Shown here: positions 943-25,207 of the stretch, one piece after another
Layout of the letters: each line of letters begins with the position of its first letter
Position numbering within the stretch: the first letter of the stretch is position 1
Source: a virus
Taxonomy: Duplodnaviria; Heunggongvirae; Uroviricota; Caudoviricetes
IMG/VR virus record: IMGVR_UViG_3300043219_000435
Strand: one strand, 5' to 3'
Length of the DNA: 61,750 bases
Translations under genes and position numbers: made by a program
Notes under the pieces: generated by a model
What the model saw: the letters and a program-made list of their open reading frames with translations, nothing else
What the model was told of the DNA's origin: nothing
The model's database searches: none

Positions 943-1049
943 TGAGTTCTCATGTTAAATAATTACATAAGAACTCCTTTTTTGATTGCCATAATACTTT
1001 AGTTACCTTTTTGATCATATGTCAATTACATATAATCCTTTTTTATAAA

Positions 1050-1404
1050 TGGAGATGAGGAGAATTGAACTCCTGTCCACAAAAACTTTAAAATAAACTG
1101 GTACAAGTTTTCCTTTGCTTTGTTTTTCGTCCTCACAGACCCCCAAAAAGGCCGGATTCTTGTGAAGCTTAACTGAAGTGTTGTTTAAATTAAAAAGCCC
1201 TCAATACGCTTTAAAATCGATCCTGTCATATATACCCAATCATCCATCCAGGACTAGAATAAAAGGGTCTAGTGCGATTAAGCAGCTAGTTTGTATGCGT
1301 TTGTGTTTGCATTTGTTGTTTTTCCGGTTTTTTTAAGAGGCCAACCAGAAATCCTCTACTTGCAGTTTAATCTTCCACTTCCATGTCGAAACCAGTGCAT
1401 CCCC
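1050..1404 (-). ncRNA. ssrA: tmRNA (transfer-messenger RNA), tag (A)ANTNAYKLAA*
   Basis: 5' GGGGATGCACTGGTTTCGAC; 3' GGAGTTCAATTCTCCTCATCTCCA; G3.U70 pair; pseudoknot-1-like GAGG/CCTC plus TCTGGTT/AACCGGA; tag ORF at 1310..1278. Confidence 0.95.
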
Positions 1405-3417: not shown

Positions 3418-4773
3418 CTAATAATGAGATTCGTACATATCTAATTTCGCAACAAATCCCCAATCTACCGGAGGATGTTGATCTTTTGCTGTGCATAACC
3501 ATAATACTTTAGTATTCTTTGGTTTTGGTGGTTCGCTAAAATACATATCAGAGAATATCACAACACCATCATATTTATGTTCATTAACCCATTCAATAAC
3601 TGGCTCAACAATAGTTCCACCTCTTCCAAGAACTTTAAACATTTTTGCTTTTTTAAACTTAGTTTCTACTTGTTTTATTTCAGTATCAAAAGTTCCATAT
3701 GTTATTTCAGCATGTTTACAAACAGAATTAATAACAGAGAATCCTTCTTGAAGCATTTTATCAGTCATAGATCCACTGATATCAACAAAGAATGCAATTT
3801 TAGTTTGATATAATCTTCTACGTCCAGGAATAAGGAGATCATATCTTCTGTTTACTTTCATACGAGAACTTTCAGTTTTCGTTATCATAACAGAATTATT
3901 AAATCTTCTTACGATTTCTTTCCAAGAAATTTTAGGTTCATTTGCAGCAATAATATCAGCAAAGAAATCACCAGTATGGGAACCCCATTGTTTCATCGAT
4001 CCTTTATTTTCATTCACCATATTTTGAATGTCGGCATCGAATAAATTGTTTTGTCCCCAATCCTGATTAGTGGTTCCATTAGGATCAAAATGATCTTTTA
4101 AAGCTTCAGTTGGACCATCGTATTCTTGATAACCATCTCCATCTTTACCATCTTCTTGTTCTTGACCGTTTCCTTGCCCGTCTCCATCTTCTTCTTCACC
4201 ATCACCATCTTCTTTTTCTTCACCATCTCCTTGACCATCTTCTTTCATTTTATCAAGCATATTTTGAATAGCTTCATTTTGATCTTCTTCAGTCATTGAA
4301 TTCCAAGTTTCTTGAATCTTATCTTCAACGTCTTGTTTTTGATCCATCAATTTACGAAAATATTCTTCATAAAATTTGTCAGGGTCGAGACCGTAATCAT
4401 CAGGTAATGGAAAAGCTGCATCAAGATCATCAAATCCTGTTGTAGATCCCAACATTTGATTTACGGTAATCATTGATGATAAACTGGAAATATGTTTTGG
4501 ATGCATCAATCTTGTTGTAGGGTGTCGTAAAAGCATTTTAAAGCCTTCTGCGACCATTACTCCCTCAAGCTGTTCCGAATGTATAGCATTAACAAAGTTT
4601 GGATTATACTTAATTACAGGGGGATTAATCCGAGAATCAATCCCCATTGTTTTTTGGTTTTTATCAGCCACTTTATCAACTAAACACCAAGTACCTAACA
4701 TCATAGGATCTTGATAGAACCAGTTAATTAAAACTCGTTCTATCTTTTCTTTTGCTGCTTTTTCGTTTGCCAT
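3418..4773 (-). CDS. VWA-domain protein with degenerate peptidase-like N-terminus (DUF2201-like), MoxR partner
   Basis: MIDAS DISGS; acidic Gly-rich linker; directly follows the MoxR ATPase. Confidence 0.8.
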   Translation of the reverse strand: MANEKAAKEKIERVLINWFYQDPMMLGTWCLVDKVADKNQKTMGIDSRINPPVIKYNPNFVNAIHSEQLEGVMVAEGFKMLLRHPTTRLMHPKHISSLSSMITVNQMLGSTTGFDDLDAAFPLPDDYGLDPDKFYEEYFRKLMDQKQDVEDKIQETWNSMTEEDQNEAIQNMLDKMKEDGQGDGEEKEDGDGEEEDGDGQGNGQEQEDGKDGDGYQEYDGPTEALKDHFDPNGTTNQDWGQNNLFDADIQNMVNENKGSMKQWGSHTGDFFADIIAANEPKISWKEIVRRFNNSVMITKTESSRMKVNRRYDLLIPGRRRLYQTKIAFFVDISGSMTDKMLQEGFSVINSVCKHAEITYGTFDTEIKQVETKFKKAKMFKVLGRGGTIVEPVIEWVNEHKYDGVVIFSDMYFSEPPKPKNTKVLWLCTAKDQHPPVDWGFVAKLDMYESHY

Positions 4774-9497: not shown

Positions 9498-9582
9498 AGG
9501 AAGATACCGGATTTGAACCGGTGCTGGTGTTACCCAGGCAACGCTTTAGCAAAGCGACACATTACCACTCTGTCAATCTTCC
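9498..9582 (-). tRNA. tRNA-Ser(GCT)
   Basis: TT-GCT-AA loop, long variable arm; 5' end overlaps the stop of the upstream CDS. Confidence 0.88.
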
Positions 9583-10415
9583 CAATGGTGTATTTCAATG
9601 TTTCTTATTTTTTTATGACCTGTTACATTCTCTGAAGGATAACCTAAAGGATTGCAGATAATGTCAGTCTTTTCAATTCGAAAATCATATTGTTCATGAG
9701 TATGTCCAAATACCCAAATTTTCGGTGCTGCTTTAGCTGTTAAATACTTCATACCATCAAAAAAGAAGAATCTGGTATTTGTATCATCATATTTGGCCGG
9801 TATATTTTTAGGTAAAACCGGACCTACATGGCTTAAGAACACATCAACATTTTCAATATTCTTTTCAAGTTTTGCTATTTCTTCATCTAATATGAATTTA
9901 TAACTCTTCATATTGTATATATAATTGGCATCATTCATGAAGTAAAGCCATTTCTCTTTAATCTGATCTTCAGTAAGATTTGGCTCAAAATTGCTTAATT
10001 TCCCATCATACCACATATCAGTGCCGGAATATTTAACTCCATCATGCTCGATTATTTCACCATCTGAAACATATACATTTTCAATATCATCAATCTTAGC
10101 TTTCATTTCTTGAACACGATTAAACGAATTTCTAAAGTATTTGTTCTGTTGTGTTTTTGAAACTAAATAATAATCATGATTACCAAAGGTAACAATAACT
10201 TTCTTATATATTTTGCCCAATAGCTTTAGCATGTAGGCGTTTTGTTTATTGCTATGTCCAATGTCCCCAGCAATCAATAAAACGTCTTGTGGCTCTTCTG
10301 GAAGGATATTATTAACAAGATTTTCGATATGAAACTCTTGCTTATGATGCACTGTATGCATCTGTACATACATGTCTAAATGTATGTCTGATATAAAGTC
10401 AAAGTTAATTACCAT
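9573..10415 (-). CDS. calcineurin-like metallophosphoesterase
   Basis: SDIH, AGDIG, GNHDYY, FGHTH. Confidence 0.9.
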   Translation of the reverse strand: MVINFDFISDIHLDMYVQMHTVHHKQEFHIENLVNNILPEEPQDVLLIAGDIGHSNKQNAYMLKLLGKIYKKVIVTFGNHDYYLVSKTQQNKYFRNSFNRVQEMKAKIDDIENVYVSDGEIIEHDGVKYSGTDMWYDGKLSNFEPNLTEDQIKEKWLYFMNDANYIYNMKSYKFILDEEIAKLEKNIENVDVFLSHVGPVLPKNIPAKYDDTNTRFFFFDGMKYLTAKAAPKIWVFGHTHEQYDFRIEKTDIICNPLGYPSENVTGHKKIRNIEIHHWED

Positions 10416-10424
10416 ATTTCACCA

Positions 10425-10464
10425 TAAAAAAAGTGCTGAGTGTCACTACCCTGCGACACTCAGC
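10425..10464 (-). terminator. intrinsic terminator closing the protein+ncRNA operon
   Basis: GCTGAGTGTC/GACACTCAGC stem followed by a U run. Confidence 0.85.
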
Positions 10465-10507
10465 TATTAGTGTAAAGTATTATTGATTTGTGTAGATTTT
10501 TTAATTA

Positions 10508-10616
10508 ATCTGAAAATCCCGCTCTACGACTGAGCTACAACCCCTCTAAAGACTCATTAAATCTTTAGAGGGGCAGGAGAGAATTGAACTCTCGACCTGG
10601 ATAAGAATTCCAAAAC
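10508..10616 (-). ncRNA. circularly permuted tRNA-like (YrlA-like) module 1
   Basis: 5'->3' order is T arm (GAGAG-TTCAATT-CTCTC), loop-closed acceptor-like hairpin (CCCCTCTAAAGA/TCTTTAGAGGGG), D arm (GCTC-AGTCGTA-GAGC), closed by ATCC/GGAT. Confidence 0.8.
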
Positions 10617-10690
10617 CTTGATCAATATATACTAGTTGTTTTTTAAATCTGTGGTGTCAAAAATCTAATTTTTTAGTTTAAATTTAATGT

Positions 10691-10795
10691 GTGCCAATAT
10701 GTGGGTGTCGCCAATTGCACCACCTCGGCCTGATTTTTCAATAAATGCCGAGGTAAGGATTCGAACCTCAATTCTCGTTAAAGACTCACTAGCAC
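10691..10795 (-). ncRNA. circularly permuted tRNA-like (YrlA-like) module 2
   Basis: T arm GAGG-TTCGAAT-CCTT, acceptor-like ACCTCGGC...GCCGAGGT hairpin, D arm GTG-CAATTGGCGA-CAC, outer GTGC/GCAC. Confidence 0.78.
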
Positions 10796-10818
10796 GTCAG
10801 ATTTAGTTTGCACCAATT

Positions 10819-11577
10819 TTAATTTGTTCCATTAATATATTCAAATATTTTTTTGCCAATTTCAACATTTTTAACTTCTTCTTGATTAGCACTGCAACGA
10901 GCACTTACAACAGCTCTGGCTAATTCATCAATCTTTTTAAGAAGATTATGCTTCTGTCTTGCTGATAAACATCCACTTTTATAAATCTGTTTCCATTTAC
11001 CTTGTTGAACATCTTCACTAATCAATTGTGCCTGTGCAGGATGATGATCTGTAGCTTCAACTAAAGTAATTGGCTTTTGTTTTTTCTTAGATTTAATTGT
11101 TTCTACAGCTTCTGTGATAAAAACATTTGTACCGTTTGCATCTTCTTTCCAAACTTTATCAGAATCAAGAGTAGGAATAACTGCATAAACTTCTCTAATT
11201 TTCTTCAATTTACTTTCAAGATTGAGAAGTACAGTTGCAGGAACATCAGTTGCAATTACATTACCATTAATTACCAAATCTGCTTTAGCTGTGGTATTTG
11301 TAAATTCTTTCTGATACATGCAATCAATAGTTGCGATAACAGATTGTTCAACATATTCCAATTTATCAGGAACATTTGTAACTAATTGTTTTGATTCAGA
11401 TGGAAATTGTTCTGTATCTTCTTCATTCATCTTTTCATAAGTTTTTGTAAAACCGTTGAAATGATTTCCATCTTTAAAAACTTTCTTTGCTTCGTCTAAG
11501 ATCTTGTCTTCAGCACCTTTTAGAGAGCCTTCCACCGCAAGAACAGCATGAAGCTGATTTTTCTTTTGATCACTCAT
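10819..11577 (-). CDS. 252-aa helical protein of unknown function, co-transcribed with the tRNA-like RNAs
   Basis: Own sigma70 promoter; long amphipathic helices. Confidence 0.85.
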   Translation of the reverse strand: MSDQKKNQLHAVLAVEGSLKGAEDKILDEAKKVFKDGNHFNGFTKTYEKMNEEDTEQFPSESKQLVTNVPDKLEYVEQSVIATIDCMYQKEFTNTTAKADLVINGNVIATDVPATVLLNLESKLKKIREVYAVIPTLDSDKVWKEDANGTNVFITEAVETIKSKKKQKPITLVEATDHHPAQAQLISEDVQQGKWKQIYKSGCLSARQKHNLLKKIDELARAVVSARCSANQEEVKNVEIGKKIFEYINGTN

Positions 11578-11605
11578 ATTAAATCCTTTATGTTATTGTA
11601 ATAAC

Positions 11606-11634
11606 AATTTAATTAATTGTACTTTAGTTGTCAA
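11606..11634 (-). promoter_or_regulatory. sigma70-type promoter with AACTAAAGT in the spacer
   Basis: TTGACA-17-TAAATT. Confidence 0.65.
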
Positions 11635-24946: not shown

Positions 24947-24955
24947 GAAAAATTA

Positions 24956-25060
24956 AAAATATGGTAAAGATCATTCTAACTGAGATTTTTAATCCTCCCC
25001 ACCAAACAGACAACATCCGCTTAGTGGGGAGTTTTGGATTTGAACCAAATTGTATATTTT
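24956..25060 (-). ncRNA. third circularly permuted tRNA-like module
   Basis: T arm TTTGG-TTCAAAT-CCAAA, then CTCCCCAC/GTGGGGAG loop-closed hairpin, D-like TCA-GTTAGAA-TGA, outer AAAATAT/ATATTTT. Confidence 0.65.
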
Positions 25061-25207
25061 ATGATAATATAGTATTCCGAAGTAAGTCAAAATTGCAACA
25101 CATATTTTTAAATTTATTTGTAGTTCAAGTACAACCTTCTTTCATGAGTAAACACCTCATTTTTGAAGTATCTGTAAAAGCAACTAATTGCACTAGAACA
25201 TTTTTTA

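What the first reader, a model, noticed from the sequence alone, without database searches (positions are those of the whole stretch)
10425..11634. Self-contained operon: 252-aa protein plus an RNA with two circularly permuted tRNA-like modules (candidate new RNP system)
Seen in sequence: a sigma70 promoter (11606-11634), one ORF, a ~370-nt non-coding stretch and a strong terminator. The non-coding stretch holds two elements with tRNA parts in the wrong order: T arm (TTCRA loop), then an acceptor-like helix closed by a loop, then a D arm, closed by an anticodon-position stem. Established knowledge: bacterial Y RNAs (YrlA) have this topology and normally partner Ro60/TROVE. No Ro60 gene is in this window, and the partner here is an unrelated-looking helical protein. 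Inference: the protein and RNA form a tRNA-mimic ribonucleoprotein, for example a decoy for anticodon nucleases, an RNA repair/decay adaptor or a ribosome/synthetase modulator.
Basis: partly seen in the sequence, partly recalled or inferred. Interest (0 to 1): 0.9.

Follow-up and report, generated by a model that had tools for sequence, protein, structure and literature searches.

The report
tRNA-mimic RNA paired with DUF7873 gene
A phage gene of unknown function (DUF7873) is followed by a roughly 390-base RNA carrying two back-to-front tRNA look-alikes; this gene-plus-RNA pair recurs in hundreds of phages and bacteria, mostly without the Ro60 protein that normally partners such RNAs, and I found no description of it in print.

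Summary
Between a promoter-like site (11606-11634) and a strong terminator (10435-10464) lie one 252-aa ORF (Pfam DUF7873, E 1e-77) and about 390 nt without ORFs. That stretch holds two circularly permuted tRNA-like modules: T arm, 7-bp acceptor helix capped by a loop, D arm, closed by an anticodon-position stem.

The "no Ro60" premise holds only for the window. The same phage encodes Ro60 about 11 kb away, with its own array of Y RNAs, plus RtcB. The DUF7873-linked RNA lacks the 5' motif those Y RNAs share and scores far below Rfam's YrlA threshold.

The cassette is conserved:
- 72 of 76 related IMG/VR loci carry a module just downstream on the same strand (controls 2 and 1 of 76).
- 18 of 19 other phage loci do too.
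- 55 of 80 bacterial loci do too, by a covariance model.
- 9 of 10 complete cultured carrier phages have no TROVE gene.

Family features are heavy covariation, an encoded NCCA (about 75% of one module class), a U-R-U leader before G+1, and a conserved loop a-U-n-A-r-n-n-U-R-A.

Best reading: a Ro60-independent, Y-RNA-like tRNA mimic working with DUF7873, probably opened by RNase P. Binding and function are inferred, not shown. This scan has reported the same cassette many times on other DNA.

The parts
11606..11634 (-). Sigma-70-like promoter TTGACA-17-TAAATT; overlaps the phage's abundant 9-mer AACTAAAGT (11621-11629)
   Evidence: 10 of 12 matches; such sites are not enriched over shuffles; sequence
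10819..11577 (-). 252-aa ORF, Pfam DUF7873 (PF25283), stand-alone alpha/beta protein of unknown function
   Evidence: ORF; 261.7 bits, cut-off 27; model, pLDDT 86; 2685 representative relatives, all about 245-275 aa
10816..10844 (-). Weak promoter-like site TTGAAT-17-TAAAAT inside the ORF's 3' end; possible separate start for the RNA (unproven)
   Evidence: 9 of 12. In FBKp24 and phiRSL1 a hairpin, and in FBKp24 an annotated promoter, separate gene and RNA
10425..10815 (-). About 390-nt non-coding RNA with two domains, each a permuted tRNA-like head on its own long-range closing stem
   Evidence: consensus fold with the two closest relatives L009 and L019
10808..10815 (-). Domain 1 closing helix, 5' strand (TGGTGCAA)
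   Evidence: pairs 9-16 with 166-174. Sequence is identical in all 3 relatives, so no covariation
10652..10660 (-). Domain 1 closing helix, 3' strand (TTGACACCA). A competing helix TAAATCTG/CAGATTTA lies next to it
10705..10770 (-). Module 1 (Leu-type): T arm 10754-10770, acceptor 3' strand 10747-10753, discriminator A plus cap 10730-10746, acceptor 5' strand 10723-10729, D arm 10705-10720
   Evidence: 7 of 7 acceptor pairs; model R1, 34.2 bits, E 7e-8; D arm and T arm resemble the phage's own tRNA-Leu
10773..10784 (-). Class-II-like variable arm of module 1 (TCT-TTAACG-AGA)
   Evidence: pairs 39-42 with 48-51, with compensatory changes in L009 and L019
10521..10593 (-). Module 2 (class-I-like): T arm 10577-10593, acceptor 3' strand 10570-10576, 25-nt capping hairpin 10545-10569, acceptor 5' strand 10538-10544, D arm 10521-10535
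   Evidence: Rfam YrlA 29.5 bits; R1 89.2 bits, but this sequence is a training member; covariation in acceptor and cap helix
10599..10603 (-). Anticodon-position stem of module 2, 3' strand (TATCC), followed by a 5-nt variable loop AGGTC
   Evidence: sequence; (the equivalent stem has 4-5 pairs in 48 of 51 family modules)
10505..10519 (-). Anticodon-position stem 5' strand (GGATT, 10515-10519) and conserved internal-loop motif TTCAGATTAA (10505-10514)
   Evidence: family consensus a-U-n-A-r-n-n-U-R-A; U in 43 of 43, A in 39 of 43
10621..10627 (-). Domain 2 closing helix, 5' strand (TATTGAT)
   Evidence: pairs 195-201 with 339-345
10481..10487 (-). Domain 2 closing helix, 3' strand (ATCAATA)
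10425..10464 (-). Intrinsic terminator: 12-bp stem (7 G-C pairs), 6-nt loop, T7 run

Best explanation
The locus is one member of a widespread, apparently undescribed cassette. It consists of a stand-alone DUF7873 protein gene followed on the same strand by a structured RNA. The RNA's core is one or two circularly permuted tRNA mimics, each sitting on a long imperfect closing stem, the general plan of a Y RNA.

Proposed mechanism (inferred):
1. The RNA is transcribed with or just after the gene and ends at the terminator.
2. Each head folds into a tRNA-like L-shape, shown here by conserved tertiary-interaction nucleotides and covarying T, acceptor, D and anticodon-position stems.
3. Host RNase P cuts at G+1 of the 7-bp acceptor helix. 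The cap is trimmed back to, or CCA is added at, the discriminator. This gives a nicked, multi-piece tRNA mimic with a free acceptor end, as shown experimentally for Mycobacterium smegmatis YrlA.
4. DUF7873 takes the place that Ro60 has on Y RNAs. It would bind the closing stem and the conserved asymmetric internal loop (a-U-n-A-r-n-n-U-R-A) where an anticodon loop would be.
5. The resulting particle presents tRNA acceptor and elbow surfaces, not an anticodon, to tRNA-binding factors: processing, modification or charging enzymes, or acceptor-end-directed toxins.

In this phage the cassette works beside, and separately from, a classical Ro60 / Y-RNA / RtcB set.
For: Shown:
- The gene is DUF7873.
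- Both modules are present and 7-bp acceptor pairing holds.
- The cassette is conserved: 72 of 76 IMG/VR loci, against 2 of 76 upstream and 1 of 76 on the reverse strand; 18 of 19 other phage loci, including cultured Klebsiella, Ralstonia, Rhizobium, Vibrio, Gordonia and Arthrobacter phages and cyanophages; 55 of 80 bacterial loci, with all 65 model hits on the gene's strand and all but one (L114 1341-1501) downstream of the gene.
- Covariation over 43 distinct modules: score 0.826 against 0.218 in shuffles (0 of 500 reach it); 20 of 21 pairs show double changes; slid controls score at most 0.19.
- The anticodon-position stem was not used in selecting the modules, yet it has 4-5 pairs in 48 of 51.
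- Flanks pair beyond it: median z -1.6, and 70% are below -1.
- Features not used in selection are conserved. NCCA follows the acceptor 3' strand in 45 of 60 class-I-like modules. The leader is U(-3) 50 of 72, R(-2) 68 of 72, U(-1) 39 of 72, and G+1 occurs in 48 of 72. The loop motif has U in 43 of 43 and A in 39 of 43.
- Independence from Ro60: TROVE is absent from 9 of 10 complete carrier phages. This phage's Ro60-linked RNAs share TTGCAR-N9-TACTTCG, which the DUF7873 RNA lacks.
- No other conserved neighbouring gene in 160 loci.

Against: - There is no transcript, end-mapping or binding datum, and no RNA run holds the stretch.
- Linkage does not prove contact. The protein could act on the RNA as an enzyme, or merely be co-regulated with it.
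- The DUF7873 family is near-neutral (median pI 6.8) and has no recognisable RNA-binding fold.
- Neither module in this window encodes CCA (spacers begin ATTT and TCTA), and module 2 has one U-U mismatch in its acceptor helix.
- About a quarter of the bacterial loci, mainly Cytophagales, show no module within 1.5 kb. The pairing is therefore not universal, or those RNAs are too divergent or lie elsewhere.
- Helices 2-4 were partly guaranteed by my selection rule.
- In FBKp24 and phiRSL1 a hairpin separates gene and RNA, so co-transcription is not general.
Confidence: 0.5

Rival explanations
1. The two modules are ordinary YrlA-type Y RNAs that serve the phage's own (or the host's) Ro60. DUF7873 is an unrelated neighbour.
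For: The genome encodes Ro60/TROVE (54 bits, 560-aa ORF) and RtcB. Rfam YrlA is the best Rfam hit to module 2 (29.5 bits). My model R1 scores the Ro60-linked RNAs at 36-46 bits and module 1 at 34 bits, so the tRNA-like cores are alike.
Against: - The locus lies about 11 kb from Ro60, which has its own array of modules directly downstream.
- The array's shared 5' motif occurs 6 times there and once at about window 25098, but not in this RNA.
- The published GNCGAAN0-1G motif is absent.
- Rfam scores are below the gathering threshold.
- 9 of 10 complete carrier phages lack TROVE.
- The RNA follows DUF7873 in 72 of 76 loci.
- Host Ro60 cannot be excluded.
Confidence: 0.07
2. These are true permuted tRNA genes, of the kind known in the red alga Cyanidioschyzon. 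The two halves would be rejoined at the anticodon loop, for example by RtcB, and the cap removed, giving decoding tRNAs.
For: - The 3' half with NCCA is encoded upstream of a perfectly complementary 5' half in most family members.
- There is a U33-like invariant U after the anticodon-position stem.
- The phage has RtcB, and one relative sits next to Hen1-Pnkp.
- Module 1 looks like tRNA-Leu.
Against: - No 7-nt loop can be reconstituted. The junction is a conserved asymmetric internal loop of about 10 nt opposite a shorter strand, continued by a long closing stem.
- The would-be anticodons are dominated by NAN and include many A34 triplets such as AAG and AAA.
- The window's modules lack CCA.
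- I saw no bulge-helix-bulge motif and know of no bacterial splicing endonuclease.
- The phage already has tRNA-Leu genes.
Confidence: 0.05
3. Gene and RNA are linked but do not form a stable particle. Either DUF7873 is an enzyme that processes or modifies the RNA (or tRNAs, with the RNA as regulator), or the tRNA-like heads are cis-acting processing and stability signals, in the manner of RNase P punctuation at mascRNA or plant t-elements. In the second case they would shape the 3' end of the DUF7873 message.
For: - The RNA is always on the same strand and just 3' of the ORF.
- RNase P determinants are conserved.
- The family has invariant polar residues (D100, H179, Q182, N231, K209 in A1) that could form an active site.
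- The family's charge is near neutral.
Against: - A mere processing signal would not need two domains, a conserved internal-loop motif, closing stems and full tRNA tertiary nucleotides.
- In some phages a terminator-like hairpin and an annotated promoter separate gene and RNA.
- No known catalytic fold was detected.
Confidence: 0.25
4. The modules are chance look-alikes or decayed remnants of tandem tRNA genes in a tRNA-rich phage region.
For: The window holds 22 tRNA genes and a tmRNA. Tandem tRNA pairs give weak false hits to the permuted model, at 25-33 bits.
Against: Acceptor strands within each module are complementary and covary across 43 distinct sequences. The position relative to DUF7873 is conserved in unrelated phage backbones and in bacteria. 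Controls are near zero.
Confidence: 0.01

Closest known systems
YrlA-type bacterial and phage Y RNAs with Ro60/Rsr (Rfam RF02553; Chen et al. 2014, PMC4201824; Wang et al. 2018, bioRxiv 10.1101/312249)
   Same: The tRNA-like domain is in the same permuted order (T arm, capped acceptor-like stem, D arm), with tRNA tertiary nucleotides. It is mounted on a long stem formed by the RNA's two ends, is often present in several copies, and occurs in phages.
   Different: - The partner gene is DUF7873, not Ro60.
- There is no Ro-stem motif.
- Scores are below Rfam's threshold (29.5 against 69 bits).
- The family usually encodes NCCA and a strict 7-bp acceptor helix, whereas S. [quoted passage not shown]
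- It has its own conserved internal-loop motif.
- Most carrier phages have no TROVE gene.
Mycobacterium smegmatis YrlA (Chen et al. 2014, PMC4201824)
   Same: [quoted passage not shown] It is cleaved by RNase P in vitro and in vivo, and the 3' fragment gains CCA, so the mimic ends up as two base-paired pieces. This is the processing I infer here.
   Different: It is bound by Ro60 and encoded beside rsr. Its CCA is completed after transcription. Processing of the DUF7873-linked RNA is untested.
Two-piece tmRNA from circularly permuted ssrA genes (Rfam RF04321; my own knowledge)
   Same: The gene order is permuted: T arm and acceptor 3' strand with CCA come first, then an excised cap, then the acceptor 5' strand. 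The product is a multi-piece tRNA mimic with a dedicated small protein partner (SmpB).
   Different: There is no tag reading frame, no pseudoknots and no Ala identity pair. Rfam tmRNA_permuted gives only 12.7 bits against a threshold of 47. The phage has a normal one-piece tmRNA at 1047-1404.
Permuted tRNA genes of Cyanidioschyzon merolae and other algae (my own knowledge; reviewed in PMC4090602, listed, not read)
   Same: The 3' half is encoded upstream of the 5' half, and the acceptor strands are joined by a spacer that RNase P and RNase Z remove.
   Different: Those genes regenerate a normal anticodon loop through a bulge-helix-bulge motif and a circular intermediate. Here the junction is a conserved internal loop plus a long stem, with no reconstitutable anticodon loop.
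RNase P-processed tRNA-like elements in longer transcripts (mascRNA of MALAT1, plant mitochondrial t-elements; my own knowledge)
   Same: A tRNA-shaped element without decoding function is used as an RNase P handle at the 3' side of another transcript.
   Different: Those elements are in normal, not permuted, order. They have no dedicated protein gene and no closing stem or loop motif.

Membership tests
Pfam DUF7873 (PF25283) | Full-length HMM match above the curated cut-off | tested here: met
   261.7 bits against a cut-off of 27, covering residues 7-249 of 252. It is the only copy in the genome.
YrlA (Rfam RF02553; Chen et al. 2014) | tRNA-like domain in the order T arm, capped acceptor-like stem, D arm, with conserved tRNA tertiary nucleotides | tested here: met
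   G53, T54, T55, C56, A58, C61, U8, A14 and G18 equivalents are invariant or nearly so in alignment A2.
YrlA (Rfam RF02553; Chen et al. 2014) | Score at or above Rfam's gathering threshold (69 bits) | tested here: not met
   Module 2 scores 29.5 bits (E 2e-4). Module 1 has no YrlA hit at E up to 10.
YrlA (Rfam RF02553; Chen et al. 2014) | Ro60-binding stem with the conserved 5'-strand motif (GNCGAAN0-1G, or this phage's own version TTGCAR-N9-TACTTCG) | tested here: not met
   Neither motif occurs in 10425-10820. The phage-specific motif occurs 6 times beside Ro60 and once at about window 25098.
YrlA (Rfam RF02553; Chen et al. 2014) | Encoded adjacent to a Ro60 (TROVE) gene | tested here: not met
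   Ro60 lies about 11 kb away and has its own array. 9 of 10 complete carrier phages have no TROVE gene.
YrlA (Rfam RF02553; Chen et al. 2014) | Bound by Ro60 in vivo | not testable with these tools
   Needs immunoprecipitation.
Decoding tRNA / permuted tRNA gene | Complementary acceptor strands, with the 3' half encoded upstream of the 5' half | tested here: met
   7 of 7 and 6 of 7 pairs in the window. 99.7% of acceptor cells are paired in A2, though pairing was part of my selection rule.
Decoding tRNA / permuted tRNA gene | A 7-nt anticodon loop (U33, purine 37) that can be reconstituted at the junction, with sensible anticodons | tested here: not met
   The junction is an asymmetric internal loop followed by a helix. 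The triplets after the invariant U include many A34 forms. ARAGORN and Rfam tRNA do not call the modules.
Two-piece (permuted) tmRNA | Match to the permuted tmRNA model, with tag reading frame and pseudoknots | tested here: not met
   RF04321 gives 12.7 bits against 47, and beta_tmRNA 16.7 against 84, over the T-arm and acceptor part only.
Substrate of RNase P and 3'-end maturation (like M. smegmatis YrlA) | 7-bp acceptor helix, G+1, U-1, NCCA or a discriminator available for CCA addition | tested here: inconclusive
   At family level: G+1 in 48 of 72, U-1 in 39 of 72, NCCA in 45 of 60 class-I-like modules. In the window the helices are 7 bp and begin with G. N-1 is G (module 1) or A (module 2), and no CCA is encoded. 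Cleavage itself is untested.

The most novel reading that the evidence does not exclude
DUF7873 and its RNA form a new class of ribonucleoprotein that parallels Ro60-Y RNA and SmpB-tmRNA. The RNA would be a multi-piece tRNA mimic whose heads are opened by RNase P to expose genuine CCA ends. One head is Leu-like, with A73 and a long variable arm, features read by a synthetase that ignores the anticodon. The particle could then be charged, or could act as bait for factors that attack or use tRNA acceptor ends during phage-host conflict. DUF7873 would hold the place of the missing anticodon arm.
Probability: 0.15. Interest if true: 0.85.

Novelty: new variant of a known kind. Interest (0 to 1): 0.68.

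Why it matters
tRNA-mimicking Y RNAs were thought to be tied to Ro60. Here the same RNA design travels with a different, uncharacterised protein family. That family has 2685 representatives at 50% identity, 418 IMG/VR matches and at least 570 bacterial contigs.

If the two act together, this is a third dedicated protein / tRNA-mimic partnership in bacteria and phages, after SmpB-tmRNA and Ro60-YrlA. It would also assign a first function to DUF7873.

The cassette often sits inside phage tRNA gene clusters and occurs in cultured, tractable phages of Klebsiella, Ralstonia, Vibrio, Rhizobium and Gordonia. The hypothesis can therefore be tested directly.

This particular phage is informative because it carries both systems, Ro60 with Y RNAs and DUF7873 with its RNA, each with its own stem signature. 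That argues they are not redundant.

Tried and rejected
- DNA similarity of the locus to GenBank phages (blastn): no match.
- PHROGs: no family for the protein.
- A single-protein pattern scan of IMG/VR found nothing. The alignment-based scan worked.
- Fold searches against PDB (Foldseek), PDB representatives (VIA-align), AlphaFold DB clusters and the ESM Atlas gave only family members, generic helical hairpins (Z up to 9.2 over 70 residues) and very weak Cas7/DevR rows (TM 0.14-0.27). I treat none as informative.
- A profile search of PDB sequences gave nothing.
- Homodimer prediction: no verdict. The score was 0.72 but one control scored 0.53. It is not used as evidence.
- Sequencing runs: no RNA holder was listed. 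One DNA run, probably the source sample, holds the stretch.
- The CCA-adding enzyme family PF01743 was not found in the 104-kb record, which is about 42% complete, so this says little.
- Burroughs and Aravind 2016, named in an earlier scan note as the nearest idea in print, is not held in the library, so I could not check it.
- Literature searches for DUF7873, permuted tRNA in phages, and Ro-independent Y RNAs found no description of this pair.
- I first read the short repeats in the linkers (TAAATCT, TTAGATTT, CAGATTT) as repeated protein-binding sites or anticodon mimics. Folding shows most are the two strands of local and closing helices. Only the loop motif next to the anticodon-position stem is conserved family-wide.
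A 7-sequence alignment worked.
Full report
**What is in the window.** On the minus strand a promoter-like site, TTGACA-17-TAAATT (11634-11606), precedes a single ORF at 11577-10819 (252 aa). The site overlaps the phage's abundant word AACTAAAGT. After the stop codon come about 390 nt with no ORF of 50 aa or more on either strand. The stretch ends in a 12-bp G+C-rich hairpin and a T7 run (10464-10425).

The window belongs to a 104-kb IMG/VR phage record that is about 42% complete. It holds 22 tRNA genes and a tmRNA.

**The two modules.** My pairing scan finds both modules.
- Module 1 (10770-10705) has a T arm with a TTCGAAT loop. The acceptor 3' strand CCTCGGC is followed by discriminator A and a 17-nt cap. 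The complementary 5' strand GCCGAGG, then UG, then a Leu-type D arm follow. A short class-II-like variable arm lies upstream and covaries in the two closest relatives.
- Module 2 (10593-10521) has T arm GAGAG/TTCAATT/CTCTC and acceptor strands CTGCCCC and GGGGTTG, extended by an 8-bp helix and loop. It has a canonical D arm and a closing stem TATCC/GGATT.

ARAGORN and Rfam tRNA ignore both modules. Rfam YrlA is the best family hit, but only at 29.5 bits against a threshold of 69, and only for module 2. A consensus fold with the two nearest relatives places each module on its own long-range closing helix: TGGTGCAA/TTGACACCA for domain 1 and TATTGAT/ATCAATA for domain 2.

**The protein.** The ORF is a full-length member of Pfam DUF7873 (261.7 bits), with no PHROG. 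The family is large, with 2685 representatives at 50% identity, and is always a stand-alone protein of about 250 aa.

An AlphaFold2 model is confident (pLDDT 86). It is mixed alpha/beta, with a long helical hairpin and a long beta-hairpin. Searches of PDB, AlphaFold DB clusters and the ESM Atlas returned only family members or generic and weak rows. The family is near neutral, with median pI 6.8. Invariant polar residues (D100, H179, Q182, N231 and others) leave an enzymatic role open.

The genome has a 560-aa TROVE protein just beyond the window's start. Directly downstream of it is an array of sub-threshold YrlA-like modules, and RtcB lies further on.

The Ro60-linked RNAs share a 5' element, TTGCAR-N9-TACTTCG. 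It occurs 6 times beside Ro60 and once at about window 25098. It is absent from the DUF7873 RNA, as is the published GNCGAAN0-1G motif.

Decisively, of ten complete cultured phage genomes that carry DUF7873, nine have no TROVE match.

**Conservation of the cassette.** DUF7873 homologues lie in very different backbones:
- jumbo-like phages with NAD-salvage genes;
- a phage with Hen1-Pnkp next door;
- temperate phages with RecT and integrase;
- phage tRNA clusters.

Every one has a gene-free stretch of about 270 to 1000 nt after the gene. My scan finds permuted modules in 18 of 19 of these homologous loci, often two per locus. Among 76 IMG/VR loci with enough downstream sequence, 72 have a module on the same strand, typically 60-250 nt after the stop codon. 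The controls are 2 of 76 upstream and 1 of 76 on the opposite strand.

In bacterial genomes the protein occurs in at least 570 contigs, including Nocardia, Thermomonospora, Myxococcota, Planctomycetota, Burkholderiales and Cytophagales. A covariance model built from 43 phage modules finds a module in 55 of 80 loci. All 65 hits lie on the gene's strand and all but one downstream of the gene (L114 1341-1501 lies just upstream). A mainly Cytophagales group is negative. No other protein-coding neighbour is shared by more than 13 of 160 loci.

**Structure and conserved features.** On a MAFFT alignment of 43 distinct modules (A2), the four stems give 90.5% paired cells against 59% in shuffles. The covariation score is 0.826 against 0.218 (0 of 500 shuffles reach it), and 20 of 21 pairs show double changes. 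Sliding the partner by one column drops the score to 0.19. Pairing in the T, acceptor and D stems was part of my selection rule, so the informative items are the covariation and the features I did not select for. Those features are:
- an anticodon-position stem with 4-5 pairs in 48 of 51 modules;
- flanks that pair beyond it, with median z -1.6;
- NCCA directly after the acceptor 3' strand in 45 of 60 class-I-like modules, but only 2 of 12 Leu-like ones, which instead have discriminator A in 9 of 12;
- a leader U-R-U before a mostly G +1;
- a motif a-U-n-A-r-n-n-U-R-A right after the 5' strand of the anticodon-position stem, with U in 43 of 43 and A in 39 of 43, facing a short A-rich strand.

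The window's module 2 has the loop motif as TTCAGATTAA. Neither window module encodes CCA.

**How it most likely works.** What is shown is a conserved gene-RNA cassette, a tRNA-like fold with no anticodon loop, and independence from Ro60 genes.

The rest is inferred. The strict 7-bp acceptor helix, G+1, the U-rich leader and the frequent NCCA are the determinants of bacterial RNase P and 3'-end maturation (my own knowledge). M. smegmatis YrlA, the one Y RNA with a 7-bp acceptor stem, is indeed cut by RNase P and gains CCA (PMC4201824). I therefore expect the heads to be opened, giving a multi-piece mimic with free acceptor ends.

DUF7873 is the only conserved partner. I propose that it binds the closing stem and internal loop, as Ro60 binds the Y RNA stem.

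Selection is visible on the acceptor end, the elbow and this loop, not on an anticodon. An anticodon-nuclease decoy is therefore unlikely. Interaction with acceptor- or elbow-reading factors is more plausible.

I give this whole reading about 0.5. The cassette and the tRNA mimicry alone I would put at 0.9.

**Rivals.**
- Ordinary Ro60 Y RNAs: 0.07.
- True permuted tRNA genes: 0.05.
- Linked without forming a particle, either as enzyme and substrate or as a cis-acting processing signal: 0.25.
- Chance or decayed tandem tRNAs: 0.01.

**Novelty.** The held literature has no paper mentioning DUF7873. It has none describing permuted tRNA-like RNAs with a non-Ro partner in phages. I could not read Burroughs and Aravind 2016, which an earlier scan note names as the nearest idea in print.

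This scan has reported the same cassette many times on other DNA: 139 notes in at least 107 genomes. One later check there priced the 'protein binds RNA' claim at only 22 in 100. My independent counts agree that the linkage is strong in phages and weaker in some bacterial clades, and that binding remains unproven.

I class it as a new variant of a known kind: Y-RNA-like tRNA mimics.

Noticed in passing
window 24954-25098 (minus strand): There is a lone Y-RNA-like permuted module between tRNA-Glu and tRNA-Thr. It scores 29.5 bits with model R1 and is preceded by the 5' motif (TTGCAATTTTGACTTACTTCG) shared by the Ro60-linked RNAs. It is probably an eighth Ro60-type Y RNA, lying 36 kb from the Ro60 gene.
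   Followed up: partly
G000:C1 62233-65100 (just beyond the window's start; L006 4234-7114): A Ro60/TROVE gene (560 aa) is followed by a tRNA-Ser-like gene and an array of YrlA-like modules. Each has a short GTAACNTG-type cap and a shared 5' motif. This is the classical Ro60 / Y RNA arrangement.
   Followed up: partly
G000:C1 82897-83928: An RtcB RNA ligase gene (227 bits) is present, so the phage carries a full Ro60 / Y RNA / RtcB set in addition to the DUF7873 cassette.
   Followed up: no
window 9573-10415 (minus strand): A calcineurin-like metallophosphoesterase (PF00149, phrog_1649) lies directly downstream of the cassette. The same gene follows the cassette in the closest relatives L009 and L019 but not in other lineages.
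   Followed up: partly
L021 4012-4091 (Klebsiella phage vB_KpM_FBKp24): The record annotates a 'tRNA-Sup-TTA' about 250 nt after the DUF7873 gene, within the stretch where my scan finds the two permuted modules (L021 about 3865-4142). The annotation may be a miscall of part of the mimic, or a real tRNA embedded in it.
   Followed up: no
L010 8060-12057: In one relative the cassette lies 1.3 kb upstream of a Hen1 methyltransferase and Pnkp (kinase-phosphatase-ligase) RNA-repair pair.
   Followed up: no
window 10652-10815 (minus strand): Domain 1 has two mutually exclusive closing helices: TGGTGCAA/TTGACACCA and TAAATCTG/CAGATTTA. Their strands are interleaved. This could be a switch or a pseudoknot.
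   Followed up: no
window 1047-1404 (minus strand): The phage encodes a one-piece tmRNA (160.9 bits, tag ANTNAYKLAA) next to two tRNA-Arg genes.
   Followed up: no
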